The notes: a model not told the origin generated them from the letters alone. Shown: positions 29,798 to 49,441, counted from the stretch's first letter. The stretch: DNA of 64,000 bases from Escherichia coli (GCF_003019035.1 NZ_CP027447.1); one strand, 5' to 3'. Translations and numbers: made by a program.

Positions 29798-30425
29798 GGC
29801 ATTCATCCGCGTGGATAAAACCTTTGAGGCCATCCGCGACAGCCTGAATCAGCAGGCCATCAATAACATCGCCAGAAAGCTGGCACAGGATTTACGCCGC
29901 GCCCAGCAGGCGCGCATCCGGTCACAGAAAGCGCCAGACGGGACCGCATGGACACCACGCAGACGCCGCGCAACCCGGATACAGGAACGCATTCGCTTTA
30001 TCTGGAATAACGAAGCACGCACGCTGAAAAACTGGCATCACGACACGGGGAAATACGGGCGAACCATTACCGGGTGGGATGAGGATAAAAACAATATCCG
30101 CACGTTTTATCGGGATGACATCGACCGTTTTCTGGAAATACGCACCCGGCGCATCAACCAGGACAGCACAAAGCGCGTCCCCATGTTCGTAAAACTGCGC
30201 ACCGCCCGCTACCTGAAAGCCCGTGCAGATGCTTCCGGTGTGACGGTGGGTTACAGCGGCGTAGCCGCACGTATTGCCCGCGTTCATCAGTACGGTGAGC
30301 GCGATCAGGTTGCGCCGGGCATTTTCACCGATTACCCGGTACGTGAGCTGCTGGGTATCAGCCAGGCAGATGAGCGCCTGATTTATAACACGGTGCTGGG
30401 CCGGATTGCGGAGGCTGTACGGTGA
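29781..30425 (+). CDS. S: Tail completion / virion morphogenesis protein (P2 gpS-like, enlarged)
   Basis: The ends resemble P2 S (QKAPDGTAW..., IARVHQYG, DYPVRELLG). It is about 60 aa longer in the middle than the ~150 aa I recall for P2 S. Confidence 0.8.
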   Translation: MKAMDKAFIRVDKTFEAIRDSLNQQAINNIARKLAQDLRRAQQARIRSQKAPDGTAWTPRRRRATRIQERIRFIWNNEARTLKNWHHDTGKYGRTITGWDEDKNNIRTFYRDDIDRFLEIRTRRINQDSTKRVPMFVKLRTARYLKARADASGVTVGYSGVAARIARVHQYGERDQVAPGIFTDYPVRELLGISQADERLIYNTVLGRIAEAVR

Positions 30426-31003
30426 GCGCAGAACTCATGCGACTGCTGAGCAATATCATCCGCACCGGGATCATCTCTGAAGTTGATGAGAAGTCCTGGC
30501 GCGTGCGCGTTCGCAGCGGCGAACTGGAAACAGGCTGGTTGCGCTGGAACACCACGCGCGCGGGAGCCTTCAATGTGTGGCTGCCGCCATCAGTGGGCGA
30601 ACAGGTGGTAATTGCCTGCATTGGCGGCAACCCGGAAACCGCCATGATAATTGGCAGCCTGTGGAGTGATGCCAATCCGGCCCCCGGCAAAAGCCTGAAA
30701 GAAATCGTGGTCAGCGCGCCGGATGGCGCGGTGTTCCGCTACGACGCGGACGCAGGCGCACTGAGCGCCAGCGGCATGAAAACGGCCACCCTGCAGGCAT
30801 CCGTCAGTGTGACACTGGACACACCTGTCGTGGAATGCACAGACCTTCTGAGAACAGCGACGCTTGACGTCACAAAAGGAGGAAAGATGAGCGGCAATAT
30901 CACGCACAGCGGCGGCAACTTCACCTCAAACGGCATTACCGTGCATACGCATAAACACGGTGGCGTGAAAGGCGGCAGCGATTCGACAGGAGGCCCGCAG
31001 TGA
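30422..31003 (+). CDS. V: Baseplate spike/hub (P2 gpV)
   Basis: 193 aa in the expected gene order, with C-terminal HTHKHGGV. Confidence 0.85.
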   Translation: MSAELMRLLSNIIRTGIISEVDEKSWRVRVRSGELETGWLRWNTTRAGAFNVWLPPSVGEQVVIACIGGNPETAMIIGSLWSDANPAPGKSLKEIVVSAPDGAVFRYDADAGALSASGMKTATLQASVSVTLDTPVVECTDLLRTATLDVTKGGKMSGNITHSGGNFTSNGITVHTHKHGGVKGGSDSTGGPQ

Positions 31004-31350
31004 CAACCCGCTACACAGGAATGAATCCGGACGGGACGGGAAACCTGAACGATATGGAGCACCTGAAACAGTCAGTCAGGGATATCCTGACCACCCCGCT
31101 GGCAAGCCGGGTTATGCGACGGGAATATGGCAGCCTTGTGCCTGATTTGATTGACGAACCCATGAATAACACCACGCGTCTGCAATGCATGAGTGCTGCC
31201 GTGATTGCGCTGACACGATGGGAACCCCGCATTGCCCTGGATGCCATCGACGTTGTCTGGAAAGCGGGAGGCCGCGCCGGGGTGACGCTGTCGGGCACTG
31301 TCATGCAGACCATGCAGAATGTTGAGTTAACCATCACGCTGAGGGAGTAA
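31000..31350 (+). CDS. W: Baseplate wedge protein (P2 gpW, GPW/gp25 family)
   Basis: 116 aa. SVRDILTTPLASRVMRREYGS is typical of gp25-like proteins. Confidence 0.88.
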   Translation: MTTRYTGMNPDGTGNLNDMEHLKQSVRDILTTPLASRVMRREYGSLVPDLIDEPMNNTTRLQCMSAAVIALTRWEPRIALDAIDVVWKAGGRAGVTLSGTVMQTMQNVELTITLRE

Positions 31351-31353
31351 ATC

Positions 31354-32250
31354 ATGCCCGCCGTTGACCTTTCCCAGTTACCGGAACCCGCCATCATCGC
31401 GGAGCCTGACTTTGAGGCAATTCTGGCTGACACAAAGGCCATGATGATTGCGGCTTATCCCGCCGAACAGCGTGAAGCCGTCTCCGCCGCGCTGGAGCTG
31501 GAATCGGAACCCCTGAACGTTATCGCCCAGACAACAGCGTTTCGTGAAATGCTGTTACGCCAGCGGGTCAATGAGGGGGCACGCGCCTGCATGTTAAGCC
31601 ACAGCGCCGGGACAGACCTGGACAACCTCGCGGGCAATATGAACACAAAGCGCCTGACCATCACTCCGGCAACGGATACCACCGACGCAGTGATGGAAAG
31701 TGACACCTCGCTGAGACTGCGGGCGCAGCGGGCGTACGATGGCCTGAGTGTTGCTGGCCCGTCAGGTGCATACGAGTATTTTGCCCGCAGCGCCAGCGGT
31801 CTGGTGCGTGATGCGCGGGCTATCAGTCCGTCTCCGGCAAATGTGACGGTTTCCATCCTGTCCACTGAAGGCGACGGCACAGCAACGGAGGCGTTGCTTA
31901 ATACCGTTCGCGCCGTTCTGAATGCAGAGGATACCCGCCCGGTGGCCGACCGCCTTACTGTACAGAGCGCCAGCATCGTGACATGGCGGCTGAATGCAAA
32001 ACTGTACTTTTACCCCGGCCCGGAATCCGAACCTATTCTGGCCGCGGCTGAATCGTCGTTCAGGAAGTGGCTGGCTGAGCAGGGGCTTATCGGTCAGGAC
32101 GTGGCGTTGTCCGCCATTGCTGCCGCACTGCATGTGCACGGTGTGCAACGCGTGGAGATAATCGAACCCACACAGAATATGGCCATCAGCGACATACAGG
32201 CGGCGCGCTGTGAGTCATTCACCATCAGCGAAGGTGGGCGCAATGAGTAA
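31354..32250 (+). CDS. J: Baseplate wedge protein (P2 gpJ)
   Basis: 298 aa in the expected gene order. Confidence 0.88.
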   Translation: MPAVDLSQLPEPAIIAEPDFEAILADTKAMMIAAYPAEQREAVSAALELESEPLNVIAQTTAFREMLLRQRVNEGARACMLSHSAGTDLDNLAGNMNTKRLTITPATDTTDAVMESDTSLRLRAQRAYDGLSVAGPSGAYEYFARSASGLVRDARAISPSPANVTVSILSTEGDGTATEALLNTVRAVLNAEDTRPVADRLTVQSASIVTWRLNAKLYFYPGPESEPILAAAESSFRKWLAEQGLIGQDVALSAIAAALHVHGVQRVEIIEPTQNMAISDIQAARCESFTISEGGRNE

Positions 32251-32851
32251 TTCGTTGTTACCACCATCAGCCAGCAATTTCATGCGTTGTGCCGAAGCCG
32301 TCGGAACACGCATTACAGACATTCCGGTAGACCTCAACACGCTGTGGTCGCCGGACACCTGCCCGGTGCATCTGCTGCCTTATCTCGCCTGGGCGTTTTC
32401 CGTTGACCGCTGGGATCGCAACTGGCCGGAAGAGACAAAGCGACAGGTGATTCGTGATGCATGGCTGATACACCGACACAAAGGGACCATCAGCGCACTG
32501 CGAAGAGCCGTGGAGCCTCTCGGCTACCTGATTGAAGTAAAGGAGTGGTGGCAACTCAACGAGGAGCCGGGAACATTTCGCATTGTTGTCGGAGTACTTG
32601 ATCAGGGCATCACCGATGAAATGTATCAGGAACTTGAGCGCCTTATTGCGGATGCAAAACCAGTAAGTCGCCATCTGACAGGGCTGGCGATCAGCCTGAG
32701 TGTGAACGGAAAGATTTTCGTTGGTACGGGATGCTATCACGGCGATGCCCTGACGGTTTATCCCTACACCCCGGAGTCCATTATTGTCGAAGGGGATTAT
32801 TTCCCTGCCCCGGCCATTCATTTAATTGATAATCTGAGAGTAAACGCATGA
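32243..32851 (+). CDS. I: Baseplate/tail-fiber attachment protein (P2 gpI)
   Basis: From MSNSLLPPSAS. WSPDTCPVHLLPYLAWAFSVDRWD and ADAKPVSRHL parallel P2 I. Confidence 0.88.
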   Translation: MSNSLLPPSASNFMRCAEAVGTRITDIPVDLNTLWSPDTCPVHLLPYLAWAFSVDRWDRNWPEETKRQVIRDAWLIHRHKGTISALRRAVEPLGYLIEVKEWWQLNEEPGTFRIVVGVLDQGITDEMYQELERLIADAKPVSRHLTGLAISLSVNGKIFVGTGCYHGDALTVYPYTPESIIVEGDYFPAPAIHLIDNLRVNA

Positions 32852-34353
32852 CAGTGAAATACTACGCCATTCTGACTAATCAGGGCGCGGCACGACTGGC
32901 TAACGCGACGATGCTCGGCAGTAAGCTGAATCTGACGCAAATGGCCGTTGGTGATGCAAATGGTGTGTTACCAACACCAGACCCTGCACAAACAAAACTG
33001 ATTAACCAGAAACGCATTGCACCGCTGAATCTTCTGAGTGTTGACCCTAACAATCAGAGCCAGATTATTGCGGAACAAATCATCCCTGAAAACGAGGGAG
33101 GATTCTGGATCCGTGAGATTGGTCTTTATGATGATGAAGGCGTACTTATTGCGGTGGCAAACTGCCCGGAAACGTACAAACCGCAGTTGCAGGAAGGCAG
33201 TGGACGCACCCAGACTATCCGCATGATTCTGGTTGTCACGAACACCGAAGCCATCACGCTGAAAATCGACCCGTCAGTGGTTCTGGCAACCCGCAAATAT
33301 GTGGATGATAAAATCTCAGAGCACGAACAGTCACGACGTCACCCGGACGCCTCGCTGACCGTAAAAGGTTTTACTCAGTTAAGCAGTGCAATTAACAGTG
33401 AATCAGAAACACTGGCCGCAACACCGAAAGCGGTTAAGGCTGCATATGACCTGGCTAACAGGAAATATACCGCCCAGAACGCCACCACTACACAAAAAGG
33501 GATTGTTCAGCTCAGTAGCGCCACGAACAGCACGTCTGAAACGCTGGCAGCGACACCAAAAGCTGTTAAGGCGGTAATGGATGAAACGAACAAGAAAGCA
33601 CCATTAAACAGCCCGGCACTGACCGGAACGCCAACAACACCAACAGCGCCACAGGGGACTAATAATACCCAGATCGCAAGCACGGCTTTCGTTATGGCTG
33701 CGATTGCCGCACTTGTAGATTCGTCCCCTGATGCACTGAACACGCTGAACGAACTGGCTGCGGCGCTGGGCAATGACCCGAACTTTGCGACTACCATGAC
33801 TAACGCGCTTGCGGGTAAGCAATCGAAGGATGCCACCCTGACGGCGCTGGCGGAGCTTGCTACATCAGCAGATAAACTCCCATATTTTACAGGGGCAGAT
33901 CGTGCCGCGTTAACCGCGTTGACAAGTGTTGGACGTGCCATTCTTGGTAAAACCAGCACTCAGGGAGTTCTTGATTACCTTGGTTTGGGGGAAGGCTCTG
34001 CGCTGCCCGTTGGTGTACCTGTTCCATGGCCCTCAGCCACACCGCCAACGGGGTGGCTAAAATGTAACGGAGCAGCATTTTCTTCTGAAAAATACCCCAA
34101 ACTGGCAAAGGCTTACCCAACGTTAAAATTACCGGATTTACGGGGTGAGTTTATCCGTGGCTGGGATGATGGGCGCGGGATTGATGCGGGACGTACCCTG
34201 CTTTCTGGGCAGGATGGTACAAGTTTTTCTCATTACGGAGGTAATTTCGACATTGGGTCTGGTCATTCAATCAATAACTATGACCAAATTGTTTCTAACC
34301 AACCAGGCTTTTCCCGTTTTTCATTTGCGGGCCTTCACGAGGTGATGGGTTAA
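32848..34353 (+). CDS. H: Tail fiber protein (P2 gpH-like): constant part fused to variable cassette Sv1, C-terminally truncated by frameshifts
   Basis: 501 aa with ETLAATPKAVKA repeats. The crossover site lies at codons around Y-L-G-L-G. The conserved cassette ending RPRNIAFNYIVRAA is present but out of frame at 34361-34411. Confidence 0.88.
   Translation: MTVKYYAILTNQGAARLANATMLGSKLNLTQMAVGDANGVLPTPDPAQTKLINQKRIAPLNLLSVDPNNQSQIIAEQIIPENEGGFWIREIGLYDDEGVLIAVANCPETYKPQLQEGSGRTQTIRMILVVTNTEAITLKIDPSVVLATRKYVDDKISEHEQSRRHPDASLTVKGFTQLSSAINSESETLAATPKAVKAAYDLANRKYTAQNATTTQKGIVQLSSATNSTSETLAATPKAVKAVMDETNKKAPLNSPALTGTPTTPTAPQGTNNTQIASTAFVMAAIAALVDSSPDALNTLNELAAALGNDPNFATTMTNALAGKQSKDATLTALAELATSADKLPYFTGADRAALTALTSVGRAILGKTSTQGVLDYLGLGEGSALPVGVPVPWPSATPPTGWLKCNGAAFSSEKYPKLAKAYPTLKLPDLRGEFIRGWDDGRGIDAGRTLLSGQDGTSFSHYGGNFDIGSGHSINNYDQIVSNQPGFSRFSFAGLHEVMG
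33968..33993 (+). repeat. Invertase crossover site 1 (inside H)
   Basis: cttgattaccTTggtttgggggaa. Shares the half-site GGTTTGGGGG with the five other sites. Central dinucleotide at 33980-33981. Confidence 0.7.
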
Positions 34354-34404
34354 TTATGTAACCATTCGTCCTCGTAATATTGCGTTTAATTACATCGTAA
34401 GGGC

Positions 34405-34430
34405 AGCATAAAAACGTTGGTTTGGGGAAG
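34405..34430 (+). repeat. Invertase crossover site 2 (same orientation as site 1; G-run shortened)
   Basis: agcataaaaacgTTggtttggggaag. It has G4 where the other five sites have G5/C5. Confidence 0.65.
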
Positions 34431-34897
34431 GCTCTGCGCTGCCCGTTGGTGTACCTGTTCCATGGCCCTTAGAAACACCGCCAACGGGGTGGCTAAAATG
34501 TAACGGAGCAGCATTTTCTTCTGAAAAGTACCCCAAGCTGGCAAAAGCCTACCCCACCAATAAATTACCGGATTTACGGGGTGAATTTATTCGTGGCTGG
34601 GATGATGGGCGAGGAATTGATGCAGCACGCGCTTTATTGAGCATTCAAACCGGGATGTTGGAAAAACACCGCCATATTGTTGTAGCTAACGATGGATATG
34701 ACACAAAGGATGAATGGGAGTTGGCCACGATTTTCAAAAAAACATATACACAAGGCAGGGGGCTTGATGCCACAAATACAGGAGGGAGTTTGATTCCATC
34801 ACCAACGCTTCATTCACGAGGAAGTATTGGTAACACAGGTGGTAGTGAAACCCGCCCCCGCAATATTGCATTTAACTATATCGTGAGGGCGGCTTAG
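34419..34897 (+). pseudogene. Promoterless tail-fiber C-terminal cassette Sv2 (out of phase with its crossover site)
   Basis: Encodes (G)EGSALPVGVPVPWPLETPPTGWLKCNGAAF...ETRPRNIAFNYIVRAA in frame 34427. The missing G in the site-proximal run would shift it out of frame after fusion to H. Confidence 0.6.
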
Positions 34898-34903
34898 TTA
34901 TAT

Positions 34904-35515
34904 TCAACTGGCTGCTGCCAGTGGTATTTCCGGCCAGTTGATATCTGATGCCATGTTTATATCCATTGCGTTCAGTGCGTCTATATAATCCAGCACGGCG
35001 TTAAGCCGGGTGGTTTCTGCCTGCGTCAACTTCCGCCCGGCCCGCAACTTCAACTGAATCAGACTAATGGAAGCCATTGCAGTATCAATCAGCGACTGGC
35101 GCTGTGTTTCTGCCGCTTCTACTGCGGCGCTATGCTGTGCCTCGGTATCCGTCACCCATTTTTCACCATCCCATTTATCGTATGGTGTTAACGGGGCGAT
35201 AGTGGTTGTATTTTTCGGGTAGTCACCCAGCGTCGTGATTTCTTCGGTGTTTCCCGTATCAGTGCTATAGACGGTTTCACCACGATGATCTGGCGTATAC
35301 TCCCATGAATTTAAATTCTCCGAACGGCGGATAGCATAGCCCGCTTTATGTGCGCCCGGGGCATCTAAACAGGAATTTGCCGGAATACCGACACCCGCAG
35401 CAAGATATTCAGTTGATTCGGAAATATATTCCCGTGTCTCACCATCATAGTTATAAACGACGATGTTTCCTGCCTGTACGGCAATAAGGTCATCATTTAA
35501 TATCGCGTTATTCAT
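34904..35515 (-). CDS. Tail fiber assembly chaperone (gpG/Tfa family)
   Basis: 203 aa. The C-terminal coiled region with RLNAVLDYIDAL...WPEIP is typical of Tfa proteins. Its start overlaps the stop of cassette Sv3 (TAATG). Confidence 0.85.
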   Translation of the reverse strand: MNNAILNDDLIAVQAGNIVVYNYDGETREYISESTEYLAAGVGIPANSCLDAPGAHKAGYAIRRSENLNSWEYTPDHRGETVYSTDTGNTEEITTLGDYPKNTTTIAPLTPYDKWDGEKWVTDTEAQHSAAVEAAETQRQSLIDTAMASISLIQLKLRAGRKLTQAETTRLNAVLDYIDALNAMDINMASDINWPEIPLAAAS

Positions 35516-35976
35516 TATGCGGTTCTCACAATATAATTGAAGGCAATATTGCGTGGGCGGGTTTCATTCCCCTCTGAGGATTCCGTTCTGTATTGACTGG
35601 TAAATCTACCGTTAATTGCACCTTGCCGGACGGCGTTATCTGTCGACAACAGACTATCCCCTCCTTTGTCATTTGGCACCAGTACCGTGTTATCCCACGC
35701 ATCCCATGACCGAATATTATGATAATGACTTCCTGTTAACCACCCCTGCATGCTTAAGATGCCCCTTCCGGCATCCACCCCGCGCCCATCATCCCAGCCA
35801 CGAATAAATTCACCCCGTAAATCCGGTAATTTTAACGTTGGGTAAGCCTTTGCCAGTTTTGGATACTTTTCAGAAGAAAATGCTGCTCCGTTACATTTTA
35901 GCCACCCAGTTGGCGGCGTGGCTGAGGGCCATGGAACGGGCACACCAACGGGCAGCGCAGAGCCTTCCCCCAAACC
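35515..35976 (-). other. Promoterless tail-fiber C-terminal cassette Sv3 (coupled to tfa)
   Basis: GLGEGSALPVGVPVPWPSATPPTGWLKCNGAAF...ETRPRNIAFNYIVRTA. No start codon of its own; abuts crossover site 3. Confidence 0.8.
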
Positions 35977-35990
35977 AACGTTTTCATGCT
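35965..35990 (-). repeat. Invertase crossover site 3
   Basis: Plus strand ttcccccaaaccAAcgttttcatg. Inverted relative to sites 1-2. Confidence 0.7.
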
Positions 35991-36454
35991 GCCCTTACGA
36001 TGTAATTAAACGCAATGTTATGGGGGCGTGTTTCAGATGCTGTGCGAACTGAGCGAGAGGCGTCGAATGTCCATACAGAAGCACCATATCCTTCAATGAT
36101 CTCAGTTGGTTGTAAGCCTACTGATAATATAGAGTCAGTTTGACTAAATGGTCCTGAATTAAACGCATCTTTAAAAAGCTGAGTACGCCCAAAAGTGCCA
36201 ACTATATTCTGAATAGCGTCAGACTGTGCAGACAGTAGGTTGCGCCCATTATCAACGCCCCGTCCGTCATCCCAGCCGCGAATAAATTCGCCCCGTAAAT
36301 CCGGTAATTTATTGGTGGAGTAGGCCTTTGCCAGATTGGGGTACATTTCAGAAGAAAATGCTGCGCCGTTACATTTCAGCCACCCCGTTGGCGGCGTGGC
36401 TGAGGGCCATGGAACGGGCACACCAACGGGCAGCGCAGAGCCTTCCCCCAAACC
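35984..36454 (-). other. Promoterless tail-fiber C-terminal cassette Sv4
   Basis: Same conserved N-terminal roughly 70 aa and C-terminal RPHNIAFNYIVRAA, with a unique middle. Confidence 0.8.
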
Positions 36455-36468
36455 AACGTTTTTATGCC
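36443..36468 (-). repeat. Invertase crossover site 4
   Basis: ttcccccaaaccAAcgtttttatg. Confidence 0.7.
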
Positions 36469-36893
36469 GCCCTTACGATGTAATTAAATGCGATATTTCG
36501 CGGCCTGACAGCAACAAAATTTATACCATCACCTACAGAGTTACTGGTGAAATTAAATCGTGAAAATCCTGGCTGATTTCCGACGATGCCATCATGAAAA
36601 TTAATTGCGTGCCCCGCACCATCACCTATATTTCCGGCACGCTGAGAAAAATTTGTAGCCTCTTGGCTGCTTAATAATGCTCGCCCATTGTCCACACCTC
36701 GTCCATCATCCCAACCTCGAATAAATTCGCCCCGTAGATCCGGCAATTTATTGGTGGGGTAAACCTTTGCCAGATTTGGGTACTTTTCAGAAGAAAATGC
36801 TGCTCCGTTACATTTCAGCCACCCCGTTGGCGGTGTGGCTGAGGGCCATGGAACAGGTACACCAACGGGCAGCGCAGAGCCTTCCCCCAAACC
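36462..36893 (-). other. Promoterless tail-fiber C-terminal cassette Sv5
   Basis: Conserved ends. The middle is related to Sv1 (QPGFSRFNFTSNSVGDGINFVAVRPRN). Confidence 0.8.
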
Positions 36894-36907
36894 AACGTTT
36901 TCATGCG
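36882..36907 (-). repeat. Invertase crossover site 5
   Basis: ttcccccaaaccAAcgttttcatg. Confidence 0.7.
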
Positions 36908-37410
36908 GCTCTTACGATGTAATTAAACGCAATGTTACGAGGACGGTTTTCGTTTGCAGTTGGAACAATTCTTGAAGCATCAAGGCCAATCACTTTTGGG
37001 TAAACAGCGCCATCTGTTCTTTCTGTCACCATACTTCTGACTAAGGAGAAATAACTATTGTTCGTTGAGGGGCTCAAAGGCACTACTGCCCCCTTAAACG
37101 AACCTACTGATTCCCATATTGAATAATTTTCGGTGTTTACAGTCTTGAACTCACCATAGATATTACGTATGGCATCGCCCTGAGCGGATAATATTGCCCT
37201 CCCCGTATCCATACCACGTCCGTCATCCCAGCCACGAATAAATTCACCCCGTAAATCCGGTAATTTTAACGTTGGGTAAGCCTTTGCCAGTTTTGGATAC
37301 TTTTCAGAAGAAAATGCTGCTCCGTTACATTTTAGCCACCCAGTTGGCGGCGTGGCTGAGGGCCACGGAACGGGCACACCAACGGGCAGTGCAGAGCCTT
37401 CCCCCAAACC
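36901..37410 (-). other. Promoterless tail-fiber C-terminal cassette Sv6
   Basis: Conserved ends with a unique middle. The track ORF extends upstream only through non-cassette sequence. Confidence 0.8.
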
Positions 37411-37424
37411 AACGTTTTCGTTTT
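37399..37424 (-). repeat. Invertase crossover site 6
   Basis: ttcccccaaaccAAcgttttcgtt, 55 bp upstream of the invertase start. Confidence 0.7.
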
Positions 37425-37478
37425 TATCCCTACCTATACCAACTATGTATTTTTCACGAAACAAAGAGGATGTTTTTT

Positions 37479-38078
37479 ATGCAAATTGGCTATATTCGTG
37501 TGTCAACAAATGACCAGAACACGGATTTACAACGCAATGCACTGAACTGCGCAGGATGTGAACTGATTTTTGAAGATAAAATCAGCGGAACGAAATCAGC
37601 CAGACCGGGATTGAAAAAACTGCTCAGAACGCTATCAGAAGGAGATACGCTGGTTGTCTGGAAGCTGGACAGACTGGGCAGAAGTATGAAACACCTGATT
37701 ACGCTTATTGAGGAATTGCGGGAAAAAGGTGTTAATTTCCGTAGTCTGACGGACAGCATTGACACATCAACACCCATGGGGCGTTTCTTTTTTCACGTCA
37801 TGGGGGCTTTAGCCGAAATGGAACGTGAATTAATTGTAGAGCGTACACTGGCCGGACTGGCAGCAGCACGCGCACAAGGACGCATTGGCGGACGTCGCCC
37901 GAAGTTGACAAAAGAACAACACGAGCAAATAGCGAGGCTGATTAAAAACGGTCATGACAGGAAACAACTGGCGATCATTTACGACATCGGCATATCGACG
38001 ATTTATCGTTATCACCCTGTAGGCGATATACAGGCTGAAGAAACAACCAGGCAGACTCAGGAAAATGAAAACCGCTAA
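37479..38078 (+). CDS. Serine DNA invertase (Hin/Gin/Cin/Pin/Min family)
   Basis: MQIGYIRVSTNDQNTDLQRNAL... contains the catalytic Ser, followed by VWKLDRLGRS and a C-terminal HTH. The start is 8 nt after AGAGGA. Confidence 0.92.
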   Translation: MQIGYIRVSTNDQNTDLQRNALNCAGCELIFEDKISGTKSARPGLKKLLRTLSEGDTLVVWKLDRLGRSMKHLITLIEELREKGVNFRSLTDSIDTSTPMGRFFFHVMGALAEMERELIVERTLAGLAAARAQGRIGGRRPKLTKEQHEQIARLIKNGHDRKQLAIIYDIGISTIYRYHPVGDIQAEETTRQTQENENR

Positions 38079-38097
38079 TCTGACCATTAGCGGTTTT
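38068..38097. terminator. Bidirectional rho-independent terminator between the invertase gene and U
   Basis: AAAACCGCTAAT-ctgacc-ATTAGCGGTTTT, a 12-bp perfect stem with an A-run and a T-run. Confidence 0.8.
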
Positions 38098-38104: not shown

Positions 38105-38599
38105 TCAAAACAGCCCTTTAACGGAGCTGGCCGCGCTGTTAAGGGATGATGTGACCTTATCTTTGAAGCCGGACAGCATATCACTGAACGATGAGGATTG
38201 CAGGCGCTCCCGCAAATCCTCATCACAGCGTTCAAGAGTCAGTGAAAATTCTATCTTTTTCGCCTTACCGTAGCGATCAAACTCGGAGCGGGTCGTATTC
38301 GTTTCAGTCAGTACATACATGCCGTAAATCTGCCCGACACCATCAATCAGAGGCCAGGGGCGTCCTGTATATGCCTGCGTGGTCAGCAGCGAAAGCGACA
38401 CTTCGCCACCTGTAATTTCAGGATAAAGCACGCCAGAAAGCACGATGCGATCATCACCTGCACCGATATACTGCCAGCTTGCTGAGCGGTTTACGCGCTC
38501 ATTTTTCACATGCCGCCAGCTTTTGTTTTGCTGTAACTGCTGATGCGGCAGTGTGCGCAGCTCAAAAACAAACATGCCGTAGATCATCATCATGACCAT
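38105..38599 (-). CDS. U: Tail protein (P2 gpU)
   Basis: FVFELRTLPHQQLQ...WRH...LSGVLYPEITGG parallels P2 U. Confidence 0.88.
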   Translation of the reverse strand: MVMMMIYGMFVFELRTLPHQQLQQNKSWRHVKNERVNRSASWQYIGAGDDRIVLSGVLYPEITGGEVSLSLLTTQAYTGRPWPLIDGVGQIYGMYVLTETNTTRSEFDRYGKAKKIEFSLTLERCDEDLRERLQSSSFSDMLSGFKDKVTSSLNSAASSVKGLF

Positions 38600-38605
38600 G
38601 ACTCC

Positions 38606-41422
38606 TCAATCTTTATCGTAAAAACTGCCACGTCCGGCACGGGCGCGCCGTTCCACCTCTGCCCTGACCATTTCACCGACCAGTTTCGCCAGTTCGCGGG
38701 GATTCTGCGTAACAACGTTATGCAGATGAACATGAATTTCACCGCCAAATCTGGAGACAGCAGGCTCCCGATTACGGGAAGCTGCAGGAACTGATGCCAC
38801 TGGCGATCGTATGGCCTCCGCCACCGGGCGGGAGCTGGCCGCAACAACAGGGACCAGCGCCGGAGGCAGCGGAGCCGGGACCACGGGTGTGATATTAATT
38901 GCGGGGGCAGGCTTACTGGCCTGCGCAATCTTCCGCTCCTGCCACTCCCCACGAACGGCAAGTGCGCGGGGCAGGTTCTTAAAGACAATATCACCGGGGC
39001 CAATGCGTTTTTTCGTCTCATCAACCAGCTTACCTGTGTTATCAGCAATTTTGCTGAGTCTGCGTAGCGTCCCGGTATTGCTGTCTGTGAGCGGTTTGTT
39101 GTCTTTGGGTTTATCACCTCCGGTGCCATTGCCATTTTCCACAGGCTTCGGCGGATTGATTTTCGCCAGGTCACCCTGAAGCAAGGCAACCTTGTCCTGA
39201 AGAATGGCCGCACGCTGTGCGTCTTCGATTTTCTTGCGCGCCCTTTCCGCTTCATCCGGAAGGACGCCAAGTTTTTCAAGTATCCACGCCAGCGTATCCA
39301 GTAGCATTTTTGCAGGTGTCAGAACAAGCTGTAACGCATCGCCAAGAACGTTACCGAATATCTCGCCAGCACTGGTGCATTTATCCAGCGTTTCCTTGCT
39401 GGACTCCATCGGTGACAGCAGCGATTTAAACCAGTTAAACACCTGGCTGATCCCGCTTCCGATTGCGTCAAAAACAGGACCAAACCGTTCAAAGGTTTCG
39501 CGCAACGGGGTCAGCCTTTCCATAATCCCGCTGAACACCCCGGCAAAAAATGCCCTGATGGGATCCCAGTATTTCCAGATAAGAACGGCAGCTCCGGCAA
39601 GCGCAGCCACGATAAGACCAACCGGACTGAACAGCGCCCCGATAGCGCCTCCCAGTAAAGAAACGGAACCCGTCACCATTCCCCACAGCGCAGGCAACAC
39701 CCTGACGACATTCATTGACCGGGTAAGAATGTCAAAACCAAGACGCAGGGTGGCCAGCTTCCCGTAAAGCACCCCAATAACCAGCGACAACGAGCCAATC
39801 GTTGCAGTCATTGCCAGCAACGCACCGCCTGCTATCAGTAGCTGGCGCGTCAGTACCGGATGGGCCTGCGCCAGCGAGGTGATTTTTTCAAGCACACGCG
39901 TGAGCCACTGCGTGACAGAACGCAGCGGACCGTCAACCAGATCACTGATGCGAATACGAAGACCTTCCCATGCGCTGTCGAGATTTTTCAGGTCCCCATC
40001 AAGATTATCGGCCATTACTTTTGCAACGCGATCGGCCTCTCCCCTTGCCCCCTGCAATTCTCTGGTCAGTTTTTGCAGCTCTCCTGAACCAGCCGCCGCA
40101 ACAAGCGTCTGCAAACCAACGAACGCCTCTTCTCCGGCGATGTCCTTGAAGAAGGAAACCTGGTCCACCTGTCCGTATTTTTGTGTCGCCTTATAGAGAT
40201 CAAGCAGCACATCCTCCATCGGGCGCATTTTGCCTCTGGCGTCAGCAACTGACACCCCCAGCTCTTTCAGTGCATCAGCCGCAGCTTTTGGCGGTGATGC
40301 AAGGCGGGACAGACTTGCGCGCATGGCCGTACCAGCATCGCTTCCGCGAAGACCATTATTGGCAAGCATCCCGGCCATGGCCGCCGCTTCTTCAAGACTG
40401 ATACCAAGTTTTGCGGCAACCGGACCGGTATACTTCATGGTTTCGCCCAGCGCGCGTAAATCAGTATTGGTCCGGGTGAATGCTGCTGTCAGCGTATCGC
40501 CAACACGGCCCATTTGATCGGCTGTCAGGTTGAACTGTGTGAGGATATTGGAGCCTATATCAGCCGTCTCGCCGAGTTCGACGCCACCTGCCAGCGCCAT
40601 ATTAAGAACACCGGGCAATGCGGCCTGAATGGCCTGCGGAGTAAAACCAGCCATTGCCAGAAAGCTCTGCCCACTGGCGGCATCACTCGCAGTAAACTGT
40701 GTTTCAGAGCCAAGTTTTAACGCCTGCTCACGCAGCGCCTTAAACTGCGGGCTGTTTTTGTCGATTCGCGTCAGTGCCTGAACGCGGGACATCTCTTTGC
40801 CGAACCCGATCGCAGGCTGCAAAAAACGCCCGGCAGCATAGCCGCCCGCCGCTGCCGCACCAATTGCCAGCGCACCACCCGTTTTCAGTTTTCCCGCTGT
40901 TTCCTGCGCGCGCGAATACCGCTCACGCGCCCGTGTTACACGCGCAAGCGCCTGCCGTTCGCGTTCAAGCTGGTTGTTGTACTGTTCGGTGCGTCTGATG
41001 GCCTGCTGGATGGTGTTATCGCTGCCTGTCAGGGAAATGCCGTGGCGTTTCAGCTCTCCGCCAAGCTCCCGCATTTTCTGAATTTCCCGTGTGCGCGATT
41101 CATTCAGGCGTTCAAGCCGGGTGCTTAACTGCTGCATCAGCTTTTGTTGTTTTTCGCTGAGCACTGTACCCGTGCGTTGTAACTGATTAAGGGCGTTAAG
41201 CTGGCGTCGTGCTTTCACGATGCCCGCATCCGCTTTACTGACAGCGTCACGGGCGCGCTCAAATGATCGCGCCTGACGCTCGAGATTTTTGATCGCCCCC
41301 TGCGTTCGCTGGATGGAGTCACCAAACTGCCCCATCAGGCGGCGGGCGTTTTCGGCAGGCCGGGTCAGCCTGTCAACGGCGCTGAAAGCGACCCGGATAT
41401 CAAGAGTCTTCATTGTCTGCAT
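38606..41422 (-). CDS. T: Tail tape measure protein (P2 gpT)
   Basis: More than 900 aa, helical with Gly/Ala-rich TM-like segments. The start is uncertain (41449, 41422 or 41413). Confidence 0.88.
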   Translation of the reverse strand: MQTMKTLDIRVAFSAVDRLTRPAENARRLMGQFGDSIQRTQGAIKNLERQARSFERARDAVSKADAGIVKARRQLNALNQLQRTGTVLSEKQQKLMQQLSTRLERLNESRTREIQKMRELGGELKRHGISLTGSDNTIQQAIRRTEQYNNQLERERQALARVTRARERYSRAQETAGKLKTGGALAIGAAAAGGYAAGRFLQPAIGFGKEMSRVQALTRIDKNSPQFKALREQALKLGSETQFTASDAASGQSFLAMAGFTPQAIQAALPGVLNMALAGGVELGETADIGSNILTQFNLTADQMGRVGDTLTAAFTRTNTDLRALGETMKYTGPVAAKLGISLEEAAAMAGMLANNGLRGSDAGTAMRASLSRLASPPKAAADALKELGVSVADARGKMRPMEDVLLDLYKATQKYGQVDQVSFFKDIAGEEAFVGLQTLVAAAGSGELQKLTRELQGARGEADRVAKVMADNLDGDLKNLDSAWEGLRIRISDLVDGPLRSVTQWLTRVLEKITSLAQAHPVLTRQLLIAGGALLAMTATIGSLSLVIGVLYGKLATLRLGFDILTRSMNVVRVLPALWGMVTGSVSLLGGAIGALFSPVGLIVAALAGAAVLIWKYWDPIRAFFAGVFSGIMERLTPLRETFERFGPVFDAIGSGISQVFNWFKSLLSPMESSKETLDKCTSAGEIFGNVLGDALQLVLTPAKMLLDTLAWILEKLGVLPDEAERARKKIEDAQRAAILQDKVALLQGDLAKINPPKPVENGNGTGGDKPKDNKPLTDSNTGTLRRLSKIADNTGKLVDETKKRIGPGDIVFKNLPRALAVRGEWQERKIAQASKPAPAINITPVVPAPLPPALVPVVAASSRPVAEAIRSPVASVPAASRNREPAVSRFGGEIHVHLHNVVTQNPRELAKLVGEMVRAEVERRARAGRGSFYDKD

Positions 41423-41938
41423 TCCCGCTGCGAAGTGCCGCCCGCTCACGCCAGCTAACCACTTCGCCGGGCGTCATCATGAAGATTTCGGCGGGCGACC
41501 AGTTAAAAATGGCGGCAATATCCGCCACCAGATCTTCGATGTGCTCAAAGCACACCAGGGTGATTACGCTGCCGTCTCCTGCACGCTCTTCGCGCCAGAG
41601 TCTGGCTCGCTCATAAAATTTACAGCCACAGCGCACAACTGAATAAAATCGCGTGACGACATTTTTTTAATCATCACTTCATCCAGTCGTGGCGAGGTCA
41701 CGCGAGGCAACAGCGTGAACATGGTATCCGCTTTCAGATTCAGCACATCAGACAGCGACAGACCACGCAGGGATCCAGCCTGCTCAATAGCCCCGGTGAT
41801 CTCCACATACGTGATTTTTTCGCCACCACGCTCAATTGGTCGGGTCAGTTTTACGCCACGTTCGACAGCCATATCCTCACCTGCCGTCACATCATCCGCC
41901 ACGGTGTTATTCCGGGTTTCAGTATCGATGTCTTTCAT
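41400..41938 (-). CDS. Tail assembly chaperone frameshift product (gpE+E')
   Basis: A -1 shift at the A7 run joins E to the overlapping ORF (...RCGCKFYERARLW...WSPAEIFMMTPGE...) that ends at 41400. This is the conserved arrangement in P2-like and lambda-like tails. Confidence 0.7.
41564..41938 (-). CDS. E: Tail assembly chaperone (P2 gpE)
   Basis: 124-aa ORF between FII and T, containing the slippery run. Confidence 0.8.
   Translation of the reverse strand: MKDIDTETRNNTVADDVTAGEDMAVERGVKLTRPIERGGEKITYVEITGAIEQAGSLRGLSLSDVLNLKADTMFTLLPRVTSPRLDEVMIKKMSSRDFIQLCAVAVNFMSEPDSGAKSVQETAA
41662..41668 (-). other. Programmed -1 ribosomal frameshift slippery heptamer (A AAA AAA)
   Basis: T7 on the plus strand is A7 in the E mRNA, located where the E and E' frames overlap. 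Confidence 0.65.
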
Positions 41939-41993
41939 CAGTTGTCTCCTTTTCAGTCAGAGGCGACGCACTGCGCCGCCTGCATATTACTTA

Positions 41994-42506
41994 TCAGCCA
42001 AGCCCAAGCGCGGAACGGATACGGTCAGGCACAATGTCCTTGCCGTCCTTCCGGTAGATGTGGTTCAACAGGTCGATTTCCCACAGCGGGCGATCGTTAA
42101 CGCTCAGCTTGTAGTAGGTGTTTTTGACAGCGTAAGTGTGTGATGTGGCTTCGCCCTGTTTGGCTTCCCCCATATCAATTTCCGTCACACGCCCGCGCAT
42201 CTCGATTTCATACAGATCGCTTTCTGCATCGGTGTAGTATTCACCCGCAAAACGCAGCAGCGTGCCGTCAATCGTGCCGCCATATTTAAGGAACAGCGCA
42301 CGAACAGCTCCCCCCATGACAAAACTCGCATCAAGCGCGGAGTCGTCCAGACCGAGATCAATACTTACCGCCCCCATCATGCCACCACCACGATAGCTGT
42401 CGGTTTTGCGCGTCAGTTTGGGCGGCGTGACGGATGTCACTTTGCCCACTTCGTTTTCACCATCCACAAACAACGTAAAAAAGCGAAGATGTTTTGGTAC
42501 AGCCAT
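41994..42506 (-). CDS. FII: Tail tube protein (P2 gpFII)
   Basis: 170 aa immediately downstream of the sheath gene. Confidence 0.88.
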   Translation of the reverse strand: MAVPKHLRFFTLFVDGENEVGKVTSVTPPKLTRKTDSYRGGGMMGAVSIDLGLDDSALDASFVMGGAVRALFLKYGGTIDGTLLRFAGEYYTDAESDLYEIEMRGRVTEIDMGEAKQGEATSHTYAVKNTYYKLSVNDRPLWEIDLLNHIYRKDGKDIVPDRIRSALGLG

Positions 42507-43690
42507 CAGGCACCTCCCAGCACCGCAAATGCGGGACCAAAGAATTCATCAGTAAACGTCTGGTAAAGCTCCATGTCTTCCAGTGGCGGAACGGGCGTAT
42601 ATTTGTAGCGAATACGCACACGTCCCTGACGTAAATTCGTGGTGCCGTTATCCACCACGTCATACCAGCACTCCGCACCAATCAGTTTCCCGGCAGTAAC
42701 CAGCGAATCCAGTTTTGCCCTGATGGCACTGATAACATCCTTCACGTTCGCAGGCGTCAGTGGACTGTCGATGGTTTCAAACTGCGCTTCCGCAATTGAA
42801 TCAGCCAGCACCTGTGCGGTTCGGGTATACACCTCAAAGATGTAGGCGTTCGTTTCCGGTGTGCGGTTGCCCCAGAAGCGGAACCCGTTGCGACGAATAA
42901 TGGTCGTGATTTCTTTGTTGTTGAGGCTGTTGGCATCGCTGTCTTCGGCCTGCAACGACCAGAACACATGCCTGGACATTCCCAGCACATTTTTAACCGG
43001 AACGTTGGACAGCGATTTGTGCCAGCCCTGCTCATGGTCAATGTACGCACGAAGACCGCACGCATAAGCAGGCGCGGGGAACGTTTCGTTTTTGCCACTT
43101 TTCGGGTTGTAGGCGATGAAGTCAGGCCATAAGAGCATCACCTCACGTTCGTTGAATTTCTGGCGGTAGGTAATCGCCTCAGCCATCGTGTTACAGCCGT
43201 GACATGAGGCATACACAAACGCGCGCAGTTTACCCGCAATCACGCACAGGGATTTTGTTACCGCCTCCGTGTCCAGCTCCGGCGCGGCCAGAATACGCGG
43301 ACGGTATCCGATGCTTTCATCCTGCTCTGCAACAAGCAGCGCATACATCCCCGTATAGCTGCCGTCAGATTCAGAACCACCGATAACCAGTTGATCCTGC
43401 GTTTTTCCGTCTTCTTCTTTGTGTTCAGCCACGCGAACGACGATCACCTTTGTGCTCACCTGGTCTGCGATGGCCTTAAGCGCACGATAAAGCGTCCCCG
43501 TTGTTCCGCATTTTCCCAGCACGTCATTGACGCGGGTCAGCAGTGTGGGCTTGTTCAGCGGGAACAGCTTCGCGTCCGCATCATCCGCCGTTGCCACGAT
43601 ACCGATAACGCTGGAATCAACATCGTTAATCGCTGTTACCAGGTCGGTATTTTCCGTAACACGGGCACCATGAAAACGAGTTTCACTCAT
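42506..43690 (-). CDS. FI: Contractile tail sheath protein (P2 gpFI)
   Basis: 394 aa in the expected gene order, sheath family. Confidence 0.9.
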   Translation of the reverse strand: MSETRFHGARVTENTDLVTAINDVDSSVIGIVATADDADAKLFPLNKPTLLTRVNDVLGKCGTTGTLYRALKAIADQVSTKVIVVRVAEHKEEDGKTQDQLVIGGSESDGSYTGMYALLVAEQDESIGYRPRILAAPELDTEAVTKSLCVIAGKLRAFVYASCHGCNTMAEAITYRQKFNEREVMLLWPDFIAYNPKSGKNETFPAPAYACGLRAYIDHEQGWHKSLSNVPVKNVLGMSRHVFWSLQAEDSDANSLNNKEITTIIRRNGFRFWGNRTPETNAYIFEVYTRTAQVLADSIAEAQFETIDSPLTPANVKDVISAIRAKLDSLVTAGKLIGAECWYDVVDNGTTNLRQGRVRIRYKYTPVPPLEDMELYQTFTDEFFGPAFAVLGGA

Positions 43691-45841: not shown

Positions 45842-46039
45842 ATGACGCAAAATGTACGATGCAAAAATTGCAACAAACTACTTGCCCGCGCCTCATTTCA
45901 CTACATTGAAATAAAATGTCCGCGCTGCAAAACACTTAACCAGATAACGAGAGCCATCGAGCACCCCACACACATGAGGAGTTATGACCGTGGGGATCGC
46001 AATCCAGCACCAACCAGCACATACACCGGAACACACTAA
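45842..46039 (+). CDS. com: Mu Com-like zinc-finger translational activator
   Basis: MTQNVRCKNCNKLLARASFHYIEIKCPRCKTLNQITRAIEHPT compares with remembered Mu Com MKSIRCKNCNKLLFKADSFDHIEIRCPRCKRHIIMLNACEHPT. Its 3' end overlaps the next gene out of frame. Confidence 0.8.
   Translation: MTQNVRCKNCNKLLARASFHYIEIKCPRCKTLNQITRAIEHPTHMRSYDRGDRNPAPTSTYTGTH
45964..45995 (+). promoter_or_regulatory. Stem-loop sequestering the methyltransferase SD and start codon
   Basis: CCCCAC (45964-45969) pairs with GTGGGG (45990-45995), enclosing GAGGAG and the ATG at 45984. This is analogous to the Com-regulated mom translation-initiation hairpin. Confidence 0.45.
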
Positions 46040-46775: not shown

Positions 46776-46778
46776 GAC

Positions 46779-46800
46779 AAAGCCCGCAATGTTGCGGGCT
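46779..46800 (+). terminator. Hairpin terminator after the methyltransferase gene
   Basis: AAGCCCGCAA-tg-TTGCGGGCTT. Confidence 0.6.
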
Positions 46801-46819
46801 TACTCTACCTCTCGAAAAT

Positions 46820-46837
46820 GTGGTCACTGCGTGGACA
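46820..46837. promoter_or_regulatory. Putative Int arm-type binding repeats (P arm)
   Basis: GTGGTCAC-TGC-GTGGACAT matches 11133-11150 at 17 of 18 positions. Confidence 0.5.
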
Positions 46838-46883
46838 TACGCTGATACAAATCCTTTTATATCAAGAAATTAAATCTTTGTTT

Positions 46884-46903
46884 TTTTCATCAACAAGGAT
46901 TTT
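46884..46903. repeat. attR core (20 bp)
   Basis: Identical to 10921-10940. On the minus strand it is followed upstream by GTG (46904-46906), the stranded native pdxB start codon. Confidence 0.85.
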
Positions 46904-47004
46904 CACGTTTGTGTTACCTGTATGAGACGAGAGTTAACCGGACAAGTGTGCCATAATCTCGCGGCCAGGCATACTTGCGAAGATTTCAGGTATAAGGATA
47001 CGTA

Positions 47005-49178
<2,174 letters not shown>

Positions 49179-49366: not shown

Positions 49367-49398
49367 GCGTTAGTGCCGGAGGCCGCATTGGCGCGTAA

Positions 49399-49436: not shown

Positions 49437-49441
49437 CCGAA

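What the first reader, a model, noticed from the sequence alone, without database searches (positions are those of the whole stretch)
33968..38078. Six-site, six-cassette multiple-inversion (Min/shufflon-like) tail-fiber switch
Six copies of a 26-bp crossover-type site share the half-site CCCCCAAACC, the central AA/TT and a variable second half. Two are in plus orientation (33968 inside H, and 34405) and four in minus orientation (35965, 36443, 36882 and 37399).

Each site is followed by a promoterless cassette. Every cassette begins GLGEGSALPVGVPVPWPSATPPTGWLKCNGAAF (Sv2 reads PLETPP in place of PSATPP) and ends with a variant of RP(R/H)NIAFNYIV(R)(A/T)A. The middle 60-110 aa are unrelated between cassettes. 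The stop codon of each cassette abuts the next site.

A Hin/Gin-family invertase gene follows site 6. Only one cassette (Sv3) is coupled to a tail-fiber assembly gene.

Simple G, C and P segments (Mu, P1, e14) have two sites. Six sites is the complexity reported for Min of plasmid p15B. Here it allows H to be fused to any of four inverted cassettes and allows their order to be reshuffled. This is an unusually large host-range repertoire for a P2-type phage.
Basis: partly seen in the sequence, partly recalled or inferred. Interest (0 to 1): 0.58.

Follow-up and report, generated by a model that had tools for sequence, protein, structure and literature searches.

The report
Min-type multi-inversion tail-fibre switch
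A P2-family prophage carries a six-site DNA-inversion module that can join its tail-fibre gene to alternative receptor-binding ends; the description is accurate, but this is a well-known system (Min of plasmid p15B) that is widespread in E. coli prophages and plasmids.

Summary
There are six 26-bp crossover sites (two +, four -), six Collar-domain cassettes, one tail-fibre assembly gene and an intact serine invertase.

It is a Min-type multiple-inversion switch.
- The invertase is 94.7% identical to that of a P1/P7-like plasmid whose region is published as 99% identical to p15B min. It is 99.5% identical to the invertase of the EPEC E2348/69 P2-like prophage.
- The three-site version in E2348/69 was shown experimentally to shuffle.
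- Two E. coli relatives are exact inversion isomers of each other.
- Simulation gives 240 isomers.

The rarity claim fails. Two prophages of the same family also have six sites. P1-like plasmids examined have 7, 9 and 13. All six cassette types recur in those plasmids. A single assembly gene is the norm for this module.

They truncate the cassette now fused to H and put Sv2 out of frame. As sequenced, only Sv3 to Sv6 give full-length fibres. These may be real decay or assembly errors.

Verdict: new member of a known kind, low interest.

The parts
32848..33979 (+). Constant 5' part of tail-fibre gene H (aa 1-377), ending in the left half of site 1
   Evidence: Pfam Phage_tail_fib N-terminal domain and fibre repeats. 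98.7-99.2% aa identity to the H constant part of related prophages.
33968..33993 (+). Crossover site 1: TTCTTGATTACC TT GGTTTGGGGGAA. The H-side half is fixed.
   Evidence: The same H-side half occurs in the related prophage loci L001-L006 (same sequence in L005, which has G4 for G5).
33982..34411 (+). Cassette Sv1 (type A), currently fused to H. It has two 1-bp deletions near 34329 and 34347, so the H ORF stops at 34353.
   Evidence: Alignment with the intact type-A cassette of L003. ORF list. Collar domain.
34405..34429 (+). Crossover site 2, one base short (GGGG instead of GGGGG in the cassette-side half)
34419..34897 (+). Cassette Sv2 (type B), one end of the double-ended segment. Out of frame with H because of the deletion in site 2.
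   Evidence: Collar domain. Simulated H::Sv2 fusion stops after 395 aa.
34904..35515 (-). Tail-fibre assembly gene (tfa). Its start codon overlaps the stop codon of Sv3.
   Evidence: Pfam Caudo_TAP, E = 1e-33. 94.6% aa identity to the E2348/69 tfa and 83.7% to the Min-like plasmid tfa.
35515..35976 (-). Cassette Sv3 (type C), the other end of the double-ended segment
   Evidence: Collar domain. Matches solved short tail fibre 9cuy_c at E = 3e-18, and T4 gp37 and gp12. H::Sv3 is 531 aa and in frame.
35965..35990 (-). Crossover site 3
35984..36454 (-). Cassette Sv4 (type D)
   Evidence: H::Sv4 is 534 aa and in frame.
36443..36468 (-). Crossover site 4
36462..36893 (-). Cassette Sv5 (type E)
   Evidence: H::Sv5 is 521 aa and in frame.
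36882..36907 (-). Crossover site 5
36901..37410 (-). Cassette Sv6 (type F)
   Evidence: H::Sv6 is 547 aa and in frame.
37399..37424 (-). Crossover site 6. The invertase-side half (AAAACGAAAACG) is fixed.
   Evidence: The same or a near-identical fixed half occurs in all related loci.
37479..38078 (+). Min-type serine DNA invertase (199 aa, Ser9 present)
   Evidence: Resolvase and HTH_7 domains. 99.5% aa identity to the E2348/69 invertase, 94.7% to the Min-like plasmid invertase, about 73% to Cin and Gin.
37497..37568 (.). Probable recombinational (Fis-dependent) enhancer inside the 5' end of the invertase gene
   Evidence: 57 of 72 nt identical to the annotated enhancer of P1 cin at the same gene position. 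Mu gin versus P1 gives 55 of 72. Function is inferred.
38068..38097 (.). 12-bp-stem hairpin between the invertase gene and gpU, terminator-like

Best explanation
This is a Min-type multiple DNA-inversion switch in the tail-fibre gene of a P2-family prophage.

**Layout.** The serine invertase (37479-38078) recombines any two of the six 26-bp sites that lie in opposite orientation. It cuts at the central TT/AA dinucleotide and inverts the DNA in between. Each site is coding on both sides. The variable half holds the last codon and the stop of the upstream cassette. The conserved half (GGTTTGGGGGAA) encodes G-L-G-E, the first residues of the downstream cassette.

**Segments.** The region consists of four single-ended segments (Sv1, Sv4, Sv5, Sv6) and one double-ended segment (Sv2 > < tfa < Sv3). 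Together these give 240 isomers.

**Output.** The cassette that lies next to site 1 in + orientation becomes the C-terminal receptor-binding end of H. This end is a collar plus head domain, related to T4 gp12 and gp37. A lysogen population therefore releases phage with different adsorption specificities.

**State of this copy.** As sequenced, Sv3 to Sv6 give complete fibres of 521-547 aa. Sv1, the current state, is truncated. Sv2 is out of frame.

**Shown here:** the anatomy, the reading frames, the homologies, and inversion isomers among relatives.

**Shown by others:** high-frequency inversion at the orthologous EPEC locus.

**Inferred:** dependence on Fis and the enhancer, restriction to inversion only, host-range change, and activity in this particular strain.
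For: - **Sites and cassettes:**
- **Domains:**
- **Invertase identity:** 99.5% to the E2348/69 prophage invertase and 94.7% to the invertase of pMCR_SCKP-LL83. That plasmid's region is reported as 99% identical to p15B min over 92% coverage (PMC5786510). Identity to Cin and Gin is about 73%.
- **Half-sites:** they resemble cix and gix and the published crossover-site consensus (PMC4134206).
- **Enhancer:** the enhancer-equivalent stretch is conserved.
- **Experiment on the orthologue:** the locus NC_011601 1891695-1893703 showed two overlapping inversions and four coexisting variants by whole-genome sequencing and PCR (PMC4272514). Those coordinates match the sites I found in L001.
- **Natural isomers:** L003 and L006 have identical flanks (5618/5619 and 3939/3939). 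The 2037 bp between two site cores is an exact reverse complement (2036/2037).
- **Simulation:** inversion only between opposed sites yields 240 isomers and in-frame H::Sv3 to H::Sv6 fusions.
- **Cassette fold:** Sv3 matches solved short tail fibres.
Against: - No read-level data exist for this strain, so orientation heterogeneity here is not shown.
- Three 1-bp deletions disable Sv1 and Sv2 as sequenced. If real, this copy is partly decayed.
- The L003/L006 crossover can only be placed within a 70-bp identical stretch that contains the site. RecA-mediated exchange within the first 62 nt of the cassette head is therefore not formally excluded for that pair.
- tfa is antisense to H in the present isomer and in 120 of the 240 isomers. 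It is unclear how it is expressed in those states.
- The p15B sequence itself was not available. Homology to Min rests on a plasmid proxy and a published comparison.
Confidence: 0.9

Rival explanations
1. Decaying relic. The array is a fossil of a Min-type switch in a prophage that no longer makes functional fibres or no longer inverts. The present arrangement is fixed.
For: Three 1-bp deletions within about 100 bp truncate the H::Sv1 product and put Sv2 out of frame. The isomer present has a defective H.
Against: The invertase ORF is intact and 198 of 199 residues match the experimentally active E2348/69 system. All six sites keep the core and half-site positions 1-9. Four cassettes, tfa and the phage structural genes checked are intact. 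The backbone shows 0-1 indels against L004 over 4-5 kb. The clustered deletions may therefore be local assembly errors. Invertible regions are known to assemble badly (PMC4134206).
Confidence: 0.07
2. Assembly artefact. Part of the six-cassette array was created, or mis-ordered, by assembling reads from a mixed isomer population into one consensus.
For: Mixed isomers are reported to cause spurious contigs and artefactual duplications in phage tail regions (PMC4134206). Some related contigs carry the same cassette type twice (L134, L146, L110). The local indel cluster sits at a junction.
Against: All six window cassettes are of different types. The arrangement obeys the grammar of a legal isomer: + single-ended segments, then the double-ended segment, then - single-ended segments, with fixed outer half-sites. 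The window is collinear with L003 from H to the end of Sv4.
Confidence: 0.03
3. General (RecA-dependent) homologous recombination between the 210-240-bp conserved cassette heads, rather than the invertase, is the main cause of the rearrangements.
For: The heads form long inverted repeats, 83-93% complementary. The L003/L006 breakpoint is resolved only to 70 bp.
Against: An intact Din-family invertase lies next to the array and every cassette boundary carries a canonical 26-bp site. In E2348/69 the variants reach 10-50% of clonal cultures (PMC4272514), which by general knowledge is far above what RecA-mediated exchange between ~200-bp diverged repeats would give. The inverted segment of L003/L006 shows no chimeric heads.
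Confidence: 0.03

Closest known systems
Min multiple-inversion system of plasmid p15B (E. coli 15T-), and the Min-type regions of P1/P7-like plasmids such as pMCR_SCKP-LL83
   Same: - The invertase is 94.7% identical at the amino-acid level.
- The crossover-site sequence is the same.
- All six window cassette types recur in the P1-like plasmids.
- The grammar is the same: single-ended segments, one double-ended segment and a single tfa.
- Six sites give 240 isomers. From my own knowledge of Sandmeier et al. 1990, p15B Min also has six sites and 240 isomers. I could not read that paper.
   Different: - The host element is an integrated P2-family prophage, not a P1-like plasmid. The constant part is P2-type H, not P1-type S.
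- The double-ended segment pairs type B with type C here. In the plasmids it pairs type H with type C.
- The invertase has a longer C-terminal tail.
- The plasmid arrays examined are larger, with 7, 9 and 13 sites.
Three-site 'shufflon' in a P2-like prophage of EPEC E2348/69 (Goldberg et al. 2014, PMC4272514)
   Same: - Same prophage family: 96% DNA identity over 85% of the query.
- Invertase 99.5% identical and tfa 94.6% identical.
- Identical outer half-sites.
- Cassette types A, B and C are in the same places.
- Inversion was shown experimentally at that locus.
   Different: E2348/69 has 3 sites, 3 cassettes and 4 variants. The window adds three single-ended segments (D, E, F) between Sv3 and the invertase. 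That gives 6 sites and 240 isomers.
G segment of Mu (Gin), C segment of P1 (Cin), P segment of e14 (Pin)
   Same: Din-family serine invertase, about 73% identical to Gin and Cin. 26-bp sites with related half-sites. An enhancer-like stretch in the 5' end of the invertase gene. A constant tail-fibre part with invertible 3' ends.
   Different: These systems have two sites and two variable ends, each with its own assembly gene (U and U'). Here there are six sites and one shared tfa. The cassettes are short Collar-domain units of about 140-165 aa, not the roughly 320-530-aa Sv/Sv' parts annotated in Mu and P1.
Tail-fibre shufflon of Enterobacter phage FR-phi (PMC13418256) and the invertible tail regions of EC958 prophages (PMC4134206)
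   Same: A Gin-type recombinase swaps C-terminal tail-fibre isoforms. Heterogeneity was seen in long reads. Locked variants differ in infectivity. EC958 Phi2 has 26-bp sites with the half GGTTTGGGGGAA and Collar-domain ends.
   Different: FR-phi has three isoforms. The EC958 loci have two sites each.
R64/IncI shufflon (Rci, pilV)
   Same: Several inversely oriented sites shuffle alternative 3' ends of a single adhesin-type gene.
   Different: As I recall it, R64 uses a tyrosine recombinase (Rci) and sfx sites to shuffle pilV; none of this was compared here. This system uses a serine invertase. 'Shufflon' applies only by analogy.

Membership tests
Din-family (Hin/Gin/Cin/Pin/Min) serine DNA-invertase system | Small serine recombinase with an N-terminal catalytic domain (active-site Ser near residue 9-10) and a C-terminal HTH | tested here: met
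   Resolvase E = 1.5e-51 and HTH_7 E = 1.4e-12. YIRVSTNDQ with Ser9 present. 72-74% aa identity to Gin and Cin.
Din-family (Hin/Gin/Cin/Pin/Min) serine DNA-invertase system | 26-bp crossover sites: two 12-bp imperfectly symmetric halves around a 2-bp core | tested here: met
   Six sites of the form 12 + TT/AA + 12. The halves resemble cix and gix and the published consensus (PMC4134206).
Din-family (Hin/Gin/Cin/Pin/Min) serine DNA-invertase system | Fis-dependent recombinational enhancer in cis, within the 5' part of the invertase gene | tested here: inconclusive
   57 of 72 nt identical to the annotated P1 cin enhancer at the same gene position, comparable with Mu gin versus P1 (55 of 72). 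The stretch is also coding, so conservation alone does not prove enhancer function.
Din-family (Hin/Gin/Cin/Pin/Min) serine DNA-invertase system | Recombination restricted to inversion between oppositely oriented sites on supercoiled DNA | not testable with these tools
   Consistent only. All 14 arrangements examined obey the inversion-only grammar. L003 and L006 differ by one legal inversion.
Min-type multiple-inversion system (p15B) | More than two crossover sites, in both orientations, clustered next to the invertase gene | tested here: met
   Six sites, two + and four -.
Min-type multiple-inversion system (p15B) | One constant 5' tail-fibre ORF that can be joined in frame to each alternative 3' cassette | tested here: met
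   Simulation gives H::Sv3 to H::Sv6 in frame and complete. Sv1 is truncated and Sv2 is out of frame because of 1-bp deletions in this copy.
Min-type multiple-inversion system (p15B) | Invertase and cassettes orthologous to those of p15B Min | tested here: met
   Tested by proxy. 94.7% aa identity to the invertase of pMCR_SCKP-LL83, whose region is published as 99% identical to p15B min (PMC5786510). All six window cassette types recur in Min-type P1-like plasmids. The p15B record itself (X62121) was not available.
Min-type multiple-inversion system (p15B) | Coexisting isomers in a clonal population | not testable with these tools
   No reads are available for this strain. It was shown for the orthologous E2348/69 locus (PMC4272514).
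R64-type shufflon | Tyrosine recombinase (Rci) acting on sfx repeats | tested here: not met
   The adjacent recombinase is a serine Resolvase-family enzyme.
P2-family (Peduoviridae-like) prophage | P2-type integrase, gpA, capsid and tail genes (V, W, J, I, H, U, T, sheath, D) | tested here: met
   Phage_GPA, Phage_P2_GpU, Phage_GPD, sheath and integrase domains. H matches P2 H at 88% DNA identity over about 600 nt. The FI-to-U block is inverted relative to P2, as in the E. coli relatives.

The most novel reading that the evidence does not exclude
The single tfa and the invariant C-terminal tag (ETRPRNIAFNYIVRAA) may form a shared chaperone-docking system that lets one assembly protein serve every cassette. 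tfa sits in an invertible segment and is antisense to H in half of the 240 isomers, and always so when Sv2 is fused. Its orientation could therefore act as a second, independent on/off gate on fibre assembly. Alternatively, in this prophage family tfa might be transcribed from the convergent FI-to-U late operon when it is in - orientation. tfa is antisense in 12 of the 14 assembled loci I looked at, and this skew is unexplained.
Probability: 0.12. Interest if true: 0.45.

Novelty: new member of a known kind. Interest (0 to 1): 0.2.

Why it matters
**Practical value.**
- The module explains why this prophage region assembles badly.
- The short 'phage tail protein' ORFs in such regions are 3' gene cassettes, not genes, and should be annotated as such.
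- The Min module moves as a unit between P1-like plasmids and P2-family prophages.
- The lysogen is predicted to release phage with up to four, nominally six, adsorption specificities.

**What is not new.** None of this is new in principle. The system type was defined in p15B around 1990. The nearest relative of this very prophage was shown to shuffle in 2014.

**Open point.** One point is worth an experiment. A single assembly gene, antisense to H in most assembled isomers, must somehow serve all the cassettes.

Tried and rejected
- **Strict site pattern.** It missed variant sites such as GGTTTAGGAGAA in relatives. I replaced it with a probe on the conserved cassette head.
- **Genome-contig scan with the invertase.** It gave few informative loci. 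The collection holds one genome per species, and many contigs break at the invertase gene next to the repeated cassette region.
- **Primary Min papers and the Johnson review.** I tried PMC53420, PMC329034, PMC206102 and PMC4384473. None is held. The figure of six sites and 240 isomers for p15B therefore rests on my own knowledge plus the simulation.
- **Solved structures.** No solved structure matches the tfa by sequence.
- **Promoter scan.** It gave nothing above chance, so it offers no independent tfa promoter.
- **Rejected: an R64-type shufflon.** The recombinase class is wrong.
- **Rejected: globally poor sequence as the cause of the frameshifts.** The backbone has 0-1 indels against L004 over 4-5 kb.
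- **Rejected: transcription from the convergent FI-to-U late operon as a general explanation for tfa expression.** The P1-like Min plasmids have no convergent operon on that side; their invertase and holin genes read away from the array.

Full report

Yes. The motif CCCCCAAACCWW (one mismatch allowed) occurs six times in the 64-kb window, all between 33980 and 37412. The chance expectation is 1.2, and none of 100 shuffles reached six.

Placed in one orientation, each site reads [12-bp variable half] TT [GGTTTGGGGGAA]. The first two are in + orientation and the last four in - orientation.

The repeat finder shows that the sites sit at the outer edge of 207-239-nt repeats, 83-93% alike. These repeats are the conserved heads of the cassettes.

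Domain searches gave the following.
- H (32848-34353) has the P2-type N-terminal fibre domain, fibre repeats and a Collar domain.
- Each of the five free cassettes is a Collar domain.
- 34904-35515 (-) is a Caudo_TAP tail-fibre assembly protein.
- 37479-38078 (+) is a Resolvase plus HTH_7 protein with Ser9 in YIRVSTNDQ.

The cassette alignment shows about 77 near-invariant N-terminal residues, a variable middle, and the C-terminal RP(R/H)NIAFNYIVR(A/T)A. The stop codon of each cassette lies inside the variable half of the next site (GCA-TAA/TGA-AAACG). Every site is therefore coding on both sides.

**2.

Three single-base deletions lie within about 100 bp.
- Against an intact copy of the same cassette type (L003), Sv1 lacks one base near 34329 and one near 34347. 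H therefore stops at 34353, and the conserved C-terminus is left in another frame.
- Site 2 has GGGG instead of GGGGG.

Positions 1-9 of that half-site are unchanged, so site 2 probably still recombines. Sv2, however, would be out of frame with H, giving a 395-aa product.

The backbone of the prophage has 0-1 indels against L004 over 4-5 kb, so the cluster is local. It may be real decay. It may also be a consensus error at a junction where reads from different isomers were mixed. Forde et al. describe indel-rich, mis-assembled invertible tail regions of this kind (PMC4134206). I cannot decide between these without reads.

The variable middles are also not all unrelated. Sv1 and Sv5 align through the middle. 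Sv4/Sv6 and Sv2/Sv3 share motifs.

**3. What it is**

The window is an Escherichia chromosome. Its fabB-mnmC-flk flank is at most 98.1% identical to any of 5,426 complete E. coli genomes. It carries a P2-family prophage from about 11.1 to 45.2 kb, with integrase, gpA, Q/P, V-W-J-I-H, U, T, sheath and D.

The invertible region matches thousands of E. coli records. The best match is the P2-like prophage of EPEC E2348/69, at 96% identity over 85% of the query. Identity there is 99.5% for the invertase and 94.6% for tfa.

The same module occurs in P1/P7-like plasmids. Identity to pMCR_SCKP-LL83 is 94.7% for the invertase and 83.7% for tfa, with the same site sequences. Zhou et al. report that the plasmid's region is 99% identical, over 92% coverage, to the min region of p15B (PMC5786510).

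Against the textbook enzymes the invertase is 73.7% identical to Cin and 72.5% to Gin. The half-sites resemble cix and gix. The stretch that P1 annotates as the cin enhancer (gene nt 19-90) is 57 of 72 nt identical here, comparable with Mu gin versus P1.

Sv3 matches solved short tail fibres (9cuy_c, E = 3e-18) and the collar regions of T4 gp37 and gp12. The cassettes therefore encode receptor-binding ends.

**4. Does it work?**

Two lines of evidence come from relatives.

First, Goldberg et al. found two overlapping inversions in a P2-like prophage of E2348/69. They showed by whole-genome sequencing and PCR that four variants with three alternative C-termini coexist (PMC4272514). Their Table S1 coordinates (NC_011601 1891695-1893703 and 1892127-1893703) coincide with the three sites I located in L001.

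Second, two unrelated E. coli genomes (L003 from chicken in Korea, L006 from a human in China) have identical flanks (5618/5619 and 3939/3939). The 2037 bp between the cores of two opposed sites is an exact reverse complement (2036/2037). The annotated proteins are the same in both, in a rearranged order. The breakpoint can only be placed within a 70-bp identical stretch that includes the site.

**5. How it works here**

The region has four single-ended segments (Sv1, Sv4, Sv5, Sv6) and one double-ended segment (Sv2 > < tfa < Sv3). I simulated inversion at the DNA level, allowing exchange only between opposed cores.
- 240 isomers are reached, in at most six steps.
- H::Sv3 is 531 aa, H::Sv4 534 aa, H::Sv5 521 aa and H::Sv6 547 aa. 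All are in frame, complete, and one inversion away.
- tfa is sense to H in 120 isomers. It is always sense with H::Sv3 and never with H::Sv2.

The number 240 equals 4! x 5 x 2. From my own knowledge it is also the number given for p15B Min.

Dependence on Fis, the enhancer and supercoiling, and restriction to inversion, are inferred from established knowledge of the Din family.

**6. Is it unusual?**

No. Site counts were as follows.

| Group | Loci | Sites |
|---|---|---|
| Related E. coli prophages | L001, L003/L005/L006, L002/L004 | 3, 4, 5 |
| Same P2-like family, IMG/VR contigs (gpI, gpJ and H constant part 97-99.5% identical to the window) | L134, L144 | 6 each |
| P1-like plasmids | L087, L089, L088 | 7, 9, 13 |

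L134 and L144 carry other cassette combinations and other splits between + and - orientation.

About a dozen cassette types form a common pool. All six window types occur in the plasmids. A single tfa inside the double-ended segment is the rule in every locus examined. The claim of an unusually large repertoire for a P2-type phage therefore does not hold, and the single tfa is not a peculiarity.

**7. What remains unexplained**

tfa is antisense to H in the window and in 12 of the 14 assembled loci I examined. No promoter-like signal above chance was found. A 12-bp-stem hairpin separates the invertase gene from gpU.

How a single assembly gene serves all cassettes is open. So is whether the invariant C-terminal tag is its docking site. 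I considered transcription from the convergent FI-to-U late operon. It cannot be general, because the plasmid versions lack such an operon.

**8. Verdict**

The rarity claim is not. This is a new member of a known kind, the Min-type multiple-inversion tail-fibre switch. Two of its six cassettes are defective as sequenced.

Noticed in passing
window 38105-43690 (- strand) versus 30422-34353 (+ strand): The tail genes gpU (38105-38599), tape measure (38606-41449), a 170-aa ORF at the tube position (41994-42506; annotated major tail tube protein in relative L006, not scanned here) and sheath (42506-43690) lie on the minus strand. They converge on the V-W-J-I-H operon, with the invertible region and the invertase between them. 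In P2 both blocks run in the same direction. The layout is conserved in E2348/69 and the other E. coli relatives, so it is a lineage feature and not a rearrangement of this copy.
   Followed up: partly
window 19170-20445 (+): An actin-like ParM/StbA gene (319 aa; StbA_N E = 7e-82, ParM C-terminal domain E = 6e-69) is followed by a Plasmid_stab_B gene (103 aa). Together they form a plasmid-partition pair. It sits just after replication gene A inside the integrated P2-family prophage.
   Followed up: partly
window 34329, 34347, 34424: Three single-base deletions lie within about 100 bp, at the 3' end of Sv1 and in site 2; two of them shorten G runs. The prophage backbone shows 0-1 indels over 4-5 kb against L004. 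This may be local decay, or a consensus error caused by mixed inversion isomers in the sequenced culture.
   Followed up: partly
window 46000-52000: The chromosomal flank (fabB, mnmC, yfcJ, flk) is at most 98.1% identical among the listed best matches from 5,426 complete E. coli genomes. This suggests a host from a divergent Escherichia lineage.
   Followed up: no
loci L001-L006, L087-L089, L134, L138, L144, L146 and the window: The tail-fibre assembly gene is antisense to the fibre gene in 12 of 14 assembled Min-type loci. A freely equilibrating switch would give about half. In E2348/69 the reference orientation of the large inversion was reported at about 90%. The cause of this bias is unknown.
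   Followed up: partly
L134 (F+ ... F-), L146 (A+ ... A-), L110 (J+ ... J-), L088 (types A, E and J each twice): Several related contigs carry the same cassette type twice, often at both ends of the array. These may be real duplications, or assembly artefacts from mixed isomers of the kind Forde et al. warn about.
   Followed up: no
window 36901-37464 (- strand): The reading frame of Sv6 stays open through site 6 into the fixed flank. It gives a 187-aa ORF that starts at a TTG at 37464, opposite the invertase promoter and RBS region. It is probably a chance extension. No promoter-like site was found in the flank upstream of it (37465-37479) on that strand.
   Followed up: no
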